This document shows, piece after piece, positions 40,413 through 41,574 of a stretch of 64,000 bases of DNA. This DNA is from Mobula hypostoma (Eukaryota). The first letter of the stretch is position 1. Every line of letters starts with the position of its first letter. The position numbers and the translations under genes are program-made. Location of the stretch: the NCBI RefSeq assembly GCF_963921235.1, contig NC_086097.1, forward strand, positions 40,302,001-40,366,000, written 5' to 3'. Under the pieces are notes generated by a model. The model made no database searches, was not told the origin of the DNA, and saw nothing but the letters and a program-made list of their open reading frames with translations.

Positions 40413-41262
40413 TTTTGTGCTGAGGGCAGCCCACAAGTGTCACTACACATTCTGATGCCAATATGGCGTGCCTGTAATTACCACCAGGTACGAAACTTCA
40501 GGCAACACTTTTCTGAAGTTTTGTTTTCATGTTATCGTTCAGCAAATGCTTTTCAGCATATCTGTAAAAAAAATCTTCCTAAAATAAAAGGACTGCTGAC
40601 CGTGTTTAATGCAGTTCCCACTGGCAGAGGCCTGACTGTCCCAGGGTTTTCACTATGTGTAATCAATAAATAATTTATATGTATGAGAACTGGTTTCTAC
40701 TTCCAAATTAGCTGTTGGCTTTATTTCAGAAGTACATAGAATGGCTTTATAAAAGTAAACATTTTGCACATTAAAGTATTTGCAGTTTATGTGAGCCTTG
40801 ACATAGCTGGAGTTATCTGTGGTTCTGATGGATTTTTCTCTCCACGGTAATTACTCCTGTTGCTTTATGTCTTGGTGTTCAGTATTCCCCTTGTAGTTCA
40901 CTGTAGCATATTTTCAGCCACAGGAGAAAACCTTGATATTATAGAGCATGTGGGTTTTCTTGCAGACTTAACGTAGGCATGTTTTGATGCAAGTGCATGA
41001 TTCTCTCTGGAGAGGCAGATCATTTCTTATAATATTTTAATGAGTCAAGATGAACAAGGTTTTCACGAGATTTTAACTCTGAGATGACAACTACGGGTTT
41101 CACAGGAATCCTAAGACTCATCATTAAAAGCCAGACAAGAAGAATCAACAGAACTTTTTAAAAATGTATTTATTTAGAAATACAGCACAGTACCTGGCCC
41201 TTCTGGTCGAATGAGCCCTCAGCACCAAATTACACCCATGTGACTAATTAGCCTATTAATCC

Positions 41263-41359
41263 TGGTCCTGACGAAGGGTCTCGGCCTGAAACGTCGACTG
41301 CGCCTCTTCCTATAGATGCTGCCTGGCCTGCTGCGTTCACCAGCAACTTTGATGTGTGG
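41263..41359 (+). mobile_element. 97-bp Penelope mini-element inserted in an HE1-like SINE (~41165-41385, minus)
   Basis: Perfect 13-bp TSD agcctattaatcc at 41250-41262 and 41360-41372. Confidence 0.92.
41264..41299 (+). ncRNA. Minimal hammerhead ribozyme motif, intact core
   Basis: ggtc-CTGACGA-agggtctcggcct-GAAAcgTC-gact. Confidence 0.75.
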
Positions 41360-41574
41360 AGCCTATTAATCCGTGCATCTTTGTTTACAACCTTTTGCTG
41401 ATACTTCAGTTTGTGTCCAAGTTCAGCACTTTGGCCAGGTGGATGGACATTTAAACTCATGGTTGAGATAAGTGTCTAAAATATTCTGGGCCACGGAATA
41501 GTAACAGGGTGACAATCAGCAACAGAAACGGGAGAAAACAATACATGGTCAACACAGTGAGGTGTGTCACAAAA

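What the first reader, a model, noticed from the sequence alone, without database searches (positions are those of the whole stretch)
41250..41372. 97-bp mobile unit consisting essentially of a hammerhead ribozyme plus a short tail
Seen: a perfect 13-bp TSD brackets 97 bp. The insert begins 5 nt before an intact core CUGACGA-stemII-GAAA-CG-UC, closed by stem I (gguc/gacu), and codes for nothing. Established: Penelope-like elements carry minimal type-I hammerheads whose vestigial stem III is a palindrome (here ACGU) and which work as dimers. Inference: this may be a discrete non-autonomous, retrozyme-like family mobilised by Penelope RT/GIY-YIG, seeding self-cleaving motifs into introns. The Penelope-hammerhead link is known; a discrete mini-family in this lineage may not be described.
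Basis: partly seen in the sequence, partly recalled or inferred. Interest (0 to 1): 0.7.

Follow-up and report, generated by a model that had tools for sequence, protein, structure and literature searches.

The report
Truncated Penelope retroelement end with hammerhead
This 97-base insertion is the hammerhead-bearing end of a Penelope-like jumping gene in a ray genome, likely a one-off truncated copy rather than a mobile mini-element of its own, so it is mostly ordinary.

Summary
In detail: a perfect 13-bp TSD (41250-62, 41360-72) flanks 97 bp with an intact minimal type-I hammerhead core, predicted cut after 41295. The insert is not a free-standing unit. Bases 41265-41358 match, at 94.7%, the end module of an endonuclease-bearing, Neptune/Nematis-type Penelope element at 21164-22302. 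That element continues upstream into pLTR and GIY-YIG sequence and downstream into a ~35-nt tail. Of 23 family arms in the window, 20 have 3' ends in two clusters, like the two internal RT start sites published for a Penelope element. The 5' ends run from -597 to +68 of the cut site, and none starts at the cut. Six TSD-flanked insertions all differ in size. No tandem, Pol III box or host exon was found. Against pure random truncation, 5 of 18 short arms start at -29..-32, the ribozyme's outer edge (weak, post hoc). Earlier scan notes report this family, and the same clustering, elsewhere in this genome and another. No genome or read data could be analysed, so a discrete family is unlikely but not excluded. 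Verdict: likely a dead-on-arrival, 5'-truncated, tail-less PLE copy.

The parts
41250..41262 (+). Left copy of 13-bp target-site duplication
41263..41264 (+). Two junction bases not from the parent. With the TSD's last three bases they repeat the element's first TCCTG (possible microhomology or slippage at the 5' junction; inferred)
41265..41358 (+). Fragment of the PLE end module, -30 to +63 relative to the predicted cut; 5 differences in 94 from copy 21292-21199, of which 41302 and 41313 also differ from copy 60282
41264..41299 (+). Minimal type-I hammerhead motif: stem I 41264-67/41296-99, core 41268-74, extra A 41275, stem II 41276-79/41284-87 (G-U first pair), GAAA 41288-91, palindrome ACGU 41291-94, predicted cut after 41295
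   Evidence: architecture as in PMC4209133
41359..41359 (+). One non-parental base at the 3' junction
41360..41372 (+). Right copy of target-site duplication
21164..22302 (.). Same-subfamily PLE insertion used as parent reference: head-to-head inverted arms with 16-bp TSD. The minus arm carries endonuclease end, pLTR, hammerhead and tail; the plus arm stops 6 nt after the cut site
21791..21973 (+). C-terminal 60 aa (plus stop) of the element's GIY-YIG endonuclease; 97% identical to a Mobula hypostoma protein
60206..60286 (-). Same-subfamily 81-bp insertion with 12-bp TSD; starts inside stem II and lacks the CUGA core
23448..23499 (.). 52-bp tail-only insertion with short inverted arm; 15-bp TSD (1 mismatch)
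733..918 (-). Decayed ORF piece with the CX4CxxC linker (Neptune/Nematis marker), fused directly to a hammerhead-region copy

Best explanation
The 97-mer is a piece of the end module (pLTR with hammerhead) of an endonuclease-bearing Penelope-like element, likely laid down by one abortive retrotransposition and likely unable to move again. Steps: (1) Shown: sequence identity to the element end, TSD, absence of the tail. (2) Inferred: the element's GIY-YIG endonuclease made a staggered cut 13 bp apart in the target, which carries ATT on both strands. (3) Inferred from PMC11167929: RT began at the nearer of two internal start sites on the element RNA, which explains the missing tail. (4) Follows from the sequence: it copied through the hammerhead cut site, so the template was not cleaved there. 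(5) Inferred: synthesis ended at the ribozyme's outer edge, a mildly preferred stopping point, and the end was joined with 3-nt microhomology plus two extra bases. (6) Inferred: a lone copy would cleave poorly or not at all, because this motif type needs a partner or the element's protein and the 97-mer is predicted to misfold.
For: Copy 21292-21199 is 94.7% identical and continues into pLTR, endonuclease and tail. The endonuclease piece hits 11 proteins (of 16 candidates), best 97% to Mobula hypostoma; 4 of 6 scanned carry GIY-YIG, below Pfam's cut-off. Close relatives include 750-950 aa RT plus C-terminal GIY-YIG ORFs, and 111 of 160 held proteins have CX2-5CxxC before YIG; so does a window piece. 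Of 23 hand-curated arms, 10 end at +59..+72, 10 at +91..+107 and 3 elsewhere, matching the optional 30-40 bp tail and two RT start sites. The 5' ends span -597 to +68, and 0 of 23 start at the cut. TSD-flanked insertions measure 52, 81, 97, 236 and 1139 bp, plus one of roughly 170 bp with a 21-bp TSD. In the anole PLE, uncleaved RNA is the dominant substrate and the ribozyme cuts only with protein. In the 97-mer, stem I pairs have probability about 0.02, and the fold is no more stable than shuffles (z 1.02).
Against: 5' ends are not uniform. 5 of 18 short arms start at -29..-32: scan p 0.002-0.004; 0.026-0.040 with inverted pairs collapsed; 0.26-0.31 with the target also removed; fixed-window test on the other arms p 0.0006-0.005. 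These tests are post hoc, with hand-set ends, and two arms (23248, 63412) are ambiguous. The census covers one 64-kb window only. No full-length element or empty site was seen. The mechanism is borrowed from a Poseidon-clade element, while this one has the Neptune/Nematis linker.
Confidence: 0.85

Rival explanations
1. A discrete non-autonomous mini-family (SINE- or MITE-like): 97-nt units are transcribed and re-mobilised in trans by the PLE protein.
For: Both ends sit at preferred positions: 5' cluster at the ribozyme edge and 3' cluster at +59..+72. The core is intact and the TSD perfect. pLTR sequences can suffice for trans-mobilisation in a rotifer PLE (PMC3846280 passage).
Against: Only 2 of 23 arms have both ends like this, and the second is half of an inverted pair from an older subfamily. 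No A-box, B-box or polyA signal was found in the insert (recalled consensus patterns). The sequence downstream of the proximal RT start, required in the anole PLE template, is absent. Preferred ends are explained by RT start sites plus one stop point, without self-propagation.
Confidence: 0.07
2. A retrozyme monomer: a unit cut out by two hammerheads, circularised, and reinserted.
For: It has a type-I hammerhead, no ORF and a TSD longer than 4 bp. Retrozymes are proposed to derive from pLTRs and were found in one chondrichthyan genome.
Against: There is no tandem array with this unit among 14 TRF rows. The ends are colinear with the PLE, not permuted. The flanks of the parent, not a repeat of the unit, follow the same sequence in other copies. 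0 of 23 arms start at the cut. The core is the minimal PLE type, not the canonical type with loop-loop contacts.
Confidence: 0.02
3. Remnant of a longer PLE insertion shortened later by deletion or recombination, leaving the TSD intact.
For: Internal deletion is seen in the window: the copy at 736 has endonuclease sequence fused to the hammerhead region. Microhomology-mediated deletions are reported for PLEs.
Against: The TSD is perfect and abuts both ends within 1-2 nt. A later deletion would have to end exactly at the TSD edge. The copy is young (2 differences in 94 not shared with either close copy).
Confidence: 0.05

Closest known systems
5'-truncated insertions of endonuclease-bearing Penelope-like elements with optional 30-40 bp tail and inverted partner (Craig et al., bioRxiv 10.1101/2021.04.23.441226; Arkhipova et al., PMC3846280; passages seen)
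   Same: Heavy 5' truncation, optional tail, head-to-head inverted arms, TSDs of about 8-20 bp, hammerhead in the pLTR
   Different: This copy is unusually short and single-armed; the window suggests a preferred 5' stop at the ribozyme's outer edge, which the passages read do not describe
Minimal hammerheads of metazoan PLEs (Cervera and De la Pena 2014, PMC4209133; parts 1-2 of 4 read)
   Same: Short stem I, extra base after A9, palindromic vestigial stem III; most motifs occur singly and were ascribed to truncated PLEs
   Different: Stem II is only 4 bp and starts with G-U rather than the conserved G10.1-C11.1; cartilaginous fish are not named in the parts read
Poseidon element of Anolis carolinensis, PAc (Frangieh et al. 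2024, PMC11167929; parts 1-2 of 4 read)
   Same: Two 3' end classes about 35 nt apart downstream of the hammerhead; copies span the uncut ribozyme; ATT in the target
   Different: Different clade (this parent has the CX2-5CxxC linker); 3' end offsets differ; nothing tested biochemically here
Metazoan non-LTR retrozymes (Cervera and De la Pena 2020, PMC7229834, passages; Li et al. 2026, bioRxiv 10.64898/2026.07.22.740005, parts 1-3 of 5)
   Same: Non-coding, type-I hammerhead, PLE-related
   Different: Retrozymes are defined by tandem repeats each with a hammerhead and give circular RNAs; this is a single colinear fragment of the parent

Membership tests
Fragment of an endonuclease-bearing Penelope-like element | Sequence continuous with an RT plus C-terminal GIY-YIG ORF and its pLTR | tested here: met
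   Shown through sister copies; no full-length element lies in the window.
Fragment of an endonuclease-bearing Penelope-like element | Hammerhead motif in the pLTR | tested here: met
   core intact in 6 of 16 aligned arms
Fragment of an endonuclease-bearing Penelope-like element | Optional 30-40 bp tail, inverted 5'-truncated partners, TSDs | tested here: met
Neptune/Nematis clades of PLE | CX2-5CxxC linker between RT and endonuclease | tested here: met
   criterion
Neptune/Nematis clades of PLE | RT phylogeny with named reference elements | not tested
   No named reference sequences were available, so Neptune versus Nematis is not resolved
PLE minimal type-I hammerhead | Core nucleotides, extra base after A9, palindromic 15.1-16.1 | tested here: met
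PLE minimal type-I hammerhead | G10.1-C11.1 pair | tested here: not met
   G-U in this copy; 7 G-C and 7 G-U among 16 rows. Described as highly conserved, not as strictly required.
PLE minimal type-I hammerhead | Covariation in stems I and II | tested here: inconclusive
   85.5% paired vs 84.4% shuffled (87/500 reach it); 1 of 8 pairs with a two-sided change; covariation score reached by 13/500
PLE minimal type-I hammerhead | Self-cleavage as dimer or with protein | not testable with these tools
   Needs an in vitro assay
Non-LTR retrozyme | Tandem repeats, each unit with a hammerhead | tested here: not met
   (window only)
Non-LTR retrozyme | Expressed as monomeric linear and circular RNA | not testable with these tools
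   No read data were analysed
Discrete non-autonomous mini-family | Many copies with identical ends and shared diagnostic variants | tested here: inconclusive
   2 of 23 arms share both ends, not the same subfamily; genome not held
Discrete non-autonomous mini-family | Own promoter (Pol III boxes) | tested here: not met
   simple recalled consensus patterns

The most novel reading that the evidence does not exclude
The ribozyme's outer edge is a real RNA landmark in ray Penelope elements: a transcript starts there or an intron ends there. The parent shows pyrimidine tract plus YAG, also readable as an initiator, right before stem I in 7 of 8 copies with pLTR upstream. Short hammerhead-headed RNAs, uncut by their own ribozyme, would then be a preferred template of the PLE protein and spread ready-made ribozyme cassettes through the genome. 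In the boldest form some of these cassettes re-mobilise as a mini-family.
Probability: 0.25. Interest if true: 0.5.

Novelty: new member of a known kind. Interest (0 to 1): 0.17.

Why it matters
As a single truncated PLE copy it matters little: PLE hammerheads, tails and truncation are described. What is worth keeping is the end pattern. The two 3' classes suggest that internal RT initiation, shown in vitro for one lizard Poseidon element, also holds for a Neptune/Nematis-type element in rays. The 5' cluster at the ribozyme's outer edge, with none at the cut, makes a long-open question testable: where PLE template RNA begins and whether the ribozyme ever acts in transposition. This family is dense, with about 23 arms in 64 kb, so a genome-wide histogram would have great power.

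Tried and rejected
Whole genome: none held, so no genome-wide histogram. Sequencing runs were listed (no RNA holder listed), but no reads were laid, so the empty site, copy ends and circular junctions remain open; the shares in that list are not used as evidence. Degenerate-motif scans of metagenome, prokaryote and viral collections gave 0 matches, as expected for fish DNA. Rfam gave 0 matches. Host gene: 297 of 424 non-repeat open frames of 38 aa or more were scanned with Pfam and gave 1 hit, a LINE endonuclease. Two more were scanned without a real hit, and the best exon-like frame had no homologue. Frames mostly in 1-18 kb and one short stretch were left out, and short exons would be missed, so 'intronic' is neither shown nor excluded. 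The idea that the open frame in the insert is the element's N-terminus was tested against 160 held proteins: only an exonised copy in a Mobula STARD3NL isoform matched; not supported. The idea that the 5' junction bases come from a spliced first exon was dropped: four edge-starting copies share no upstream sequence beyond the parent's own AG or G. The dimer-energy line used a faulty bracket string and is not used. The PDB search returned only zinc fingers from a fused N-terminus and was uninformative. PMC5785218 is not held; its dimer result is known here only through a review passage. The first clustering test used rougher ends and was replaced.

Full report
Observation. The TSD (41250-41262, 41360-41372) is perfect and brackets 97 bp; no other place among 63,600 window positions gives such a bracket. 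The hammerhead core is intact and the predicted cut follows 41295. Stem II is best drawn as GGGU/GCCU with a CUCG loop and an extra A after A9 (pair probability 0.87 in the 40-nt motif), the architecture reported for PLE minimal hammerheads (PMC4209133). Its first pair is G-U, as in 7 of 16 aligned rows. Rfam does not detect the motif. In the full 97-mer the cut site is predicted to pair with the insert's 3' end, stem I falls to about 0.02, and the fold is no better than shuffles.

What it is part of. BLAST of the insert against the window gave 20 hits including itself. The closest, 21292-21199 (minus), is 94.7% identical over 94 bases. It continues upstream through a pyrimidine-rich pLTR into the end of an ORF, and downstream through about 35 more bases. 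The ORF end (21791-21973) matches 11 proteins, the best 97% to Mobula hypostoma and others to Hypanus sabinus, so the host is likely a myliobatiform ray. These proteins show an RT motif, a CX4CxxC linker and a GIY-YIG domain, and the same linker is in the window at 733-918. Close relatives include 750-950 aa ORFs of this layout. By the criterion in Craig et al. (passages) the linker marks Neptune or Nematis; no tree with named references was made. The insert covers -30 to +63 relative to C17; its first two bases and last base are not parental.

Census of ends. I curated 23 arms of this family by hand from alignments to one young and two older in-window references. 3' ends: 10 at +59..+72, 10 at +91..+107, 3 elsewhere. 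This fits the optional 30-40 bp PLE tail and the two internal RT start sites shown in vitro for the anole element (PMC11167929); the 97-mer is of the tail-less class. 5' ends range from -597 to +68, and none lies at the cut. TSD-flanked insertions are 52, 81, 97, 236 and 1139 bp and one of roughly 170 bp; four of these six have inverted arms. One same-subfamily insertion (60206-60286) starts inside stem II and has no core, so the ribozyme is not needed for a copy to be made. Only one other arm (63412) has both ends like the 97-mer, and it is an older-subfamily half of an inverted pair.

Result against the plain reading. Five of 18 short arms start at -29..-32, the outer edge of stem I. The scan statistic gives p 0.002-0.004; with inverted pairs collapsed, 0.026-0.040; with the target also removed, 0.26-0.31. 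A fixed-window test on the other arms gives 0.0006-0.005. These are post hoc, with hand-set ends and two ambiguous arms. I saw this before consulting earlier scan notes. Two of those (e1-7858714, e1-9958889) report the same clustering on other DNA, but they are unchecked AI notes, not independent support. At this edge, 7 of 8 copies with pLTR upstream have YAG after a pyrimidine tract. This reads as a 3' splice site, as in D. virilis Penelope where the intron ends at the 5' end of helix I (intron described in PMC2377424 passages), or as an initiator (recalled consensus). RT stalling at stem I or microhomology are further options; the target's junction repeats TCCTG. None of these can be decided here.

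Mechanism. Shown: identity with the element end, TSD, no tail, span across the cut site. Inferred: staggered GIY-YIG cut, RT start at the proximal site, copying of uncleaved RNA, stop at the ribozyme edge, joining with short microhomology. In the anole element uncleaved RNA is the dominant substrate, the ribozyme cuts only with protein, and the template needs sequence beyond the proximal start. By analogy the 97-mer lacks what it would need to move again. A single minimal hammerhead from a schistosome PLE showed no cleavage, and dimers only low cleavage. No second intact core lies near: the nearest intact ones are about 19 kb away.

Rivals. A discrete mini-family (0.07) needs many copies with equal ends and shared variants; the window shows none, and no Pol III boxes were found. 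A retrozyme (0.02) needs tandem units; TRF found none of this unit among 14 rows (definition). A deletion remnant (0.05) fits poorly with a perfect TSD abutting both ends. The claim about introns is open: 297 of 424 candidate frames were scanned and no host exon was found.

Literature. Five searches were run. None listed a paper on a ray Penelope mini-family; 'Penelope, Neptune, shark, retrotransposon' gave 0 papers. The library lacks most subscription journals and Repbase, so absence is weak. Seen: PMC4209133 parts 1-2 of 4; PMC11167929 parts 1-2 of 4; bioRxiv 2026.07.22.740005 parts 1-3 of 5; passages of bioRxiv 2021.04.23.441226, PMC3846280, PMC6765202, PMC2377424 and PMC7229834; PMC8455134 as a listing only. 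No supplements were seen. The hammerhead alignments of PMC4209133 and the chondrichthyan retrozyme table of the 2026 preprint may bear on whether this family is already recorded.

Verdict. The feature is real and of a known kind: likely a dead, 5'-truncated, tail-less copy of a PLE end (confidence 0.85). Interest 0.17. The remaining lead is the preferred 5' edge (probability 0.25 that it marks a defined RNA start or intron end; interest 0.5 if true). No genome or read data could be analysed, so the empty site and the genome-wide end histogram remain the decisive open tests.

Noticed in passing
window 21164-22302: Head-to-head inverted PLE insertion with 16-bp TSD. The arms are 98% alike in the ORF part but 87-93% in the pLTR, with a 7-nt indel, which hints at two different template RNAs in one event (a dimeric RT priming both strands; speculation). 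The plus arm stops 6 nt after the hammerhead cut site.
   Followed up: partly
window 7746-7981: 236-bp fold-back insertion of another subfamily, 18-bp TSD (2 mismatches), two intact hammerhead cores on opposite strands; both arms start near -90.
   Followed up: partly
window 63268-63512: Older head-to-head pair whose arms begin at -31 and about -29, 8 nt apart; both cores are mutated.
   Followed up: partly
window 21293-21320 (minus) and equivalent places in seven other copies: Branch-point-like motif, pyrimidine tract and YAG directly before stem I, conserved across subfamilies: a possible 3' splice site or initiator at the ribozyme edge.
   Followed up: partly
window 41263-41265, 34332-34336, 63403-63404: Three edge-starting copies have a G just before the parental sequence, as copying of a 5' cap would leave (recalled from LINE biology); too few cases to weigh.
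   Followed up: no
window 654-876 (minus): PLE copy in which endonuclease sequence is fused straight to position -22 of the hammerhead region: internal deletion or template jump.
   Followed up: partly
protein P0012: A Mobula hypostoma STARD3NL isoform model includes 37 residues translated from this hammerhead module: predicted exonisation of the repeat in a host gene.
   Followed up: no
window 41293-41298: A second palindrome, GUCGAC, spans the cut site and is predicted to give a stronger, inactive dimer duplex (-8.1 kcal/mol) than the ACGU helix III.
   Followed up: partly
window 10082-13102: Decayed Gypsy-like gag-pol frames; several LINE (CR1-like) RT frames at 3952-5146, 8558-9820, 28306-30509 (labels from reading the translations, not from a family scan).
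   Followed up: no
window 38061-38435: 125-aa open frames on both strands, with no Pfam hit above chance and no homologue among longer proteins; unexplained.
   Followed up: partly
window 44815 (minus) and 45524 (plus), ORF 44933-45298: Two further CUGAnGA-stem-GAAA motifs of a different sequence flank a decayed GIY-YIG-like frame: probably a second PLE family with a longer stem II.
   Followed up: no
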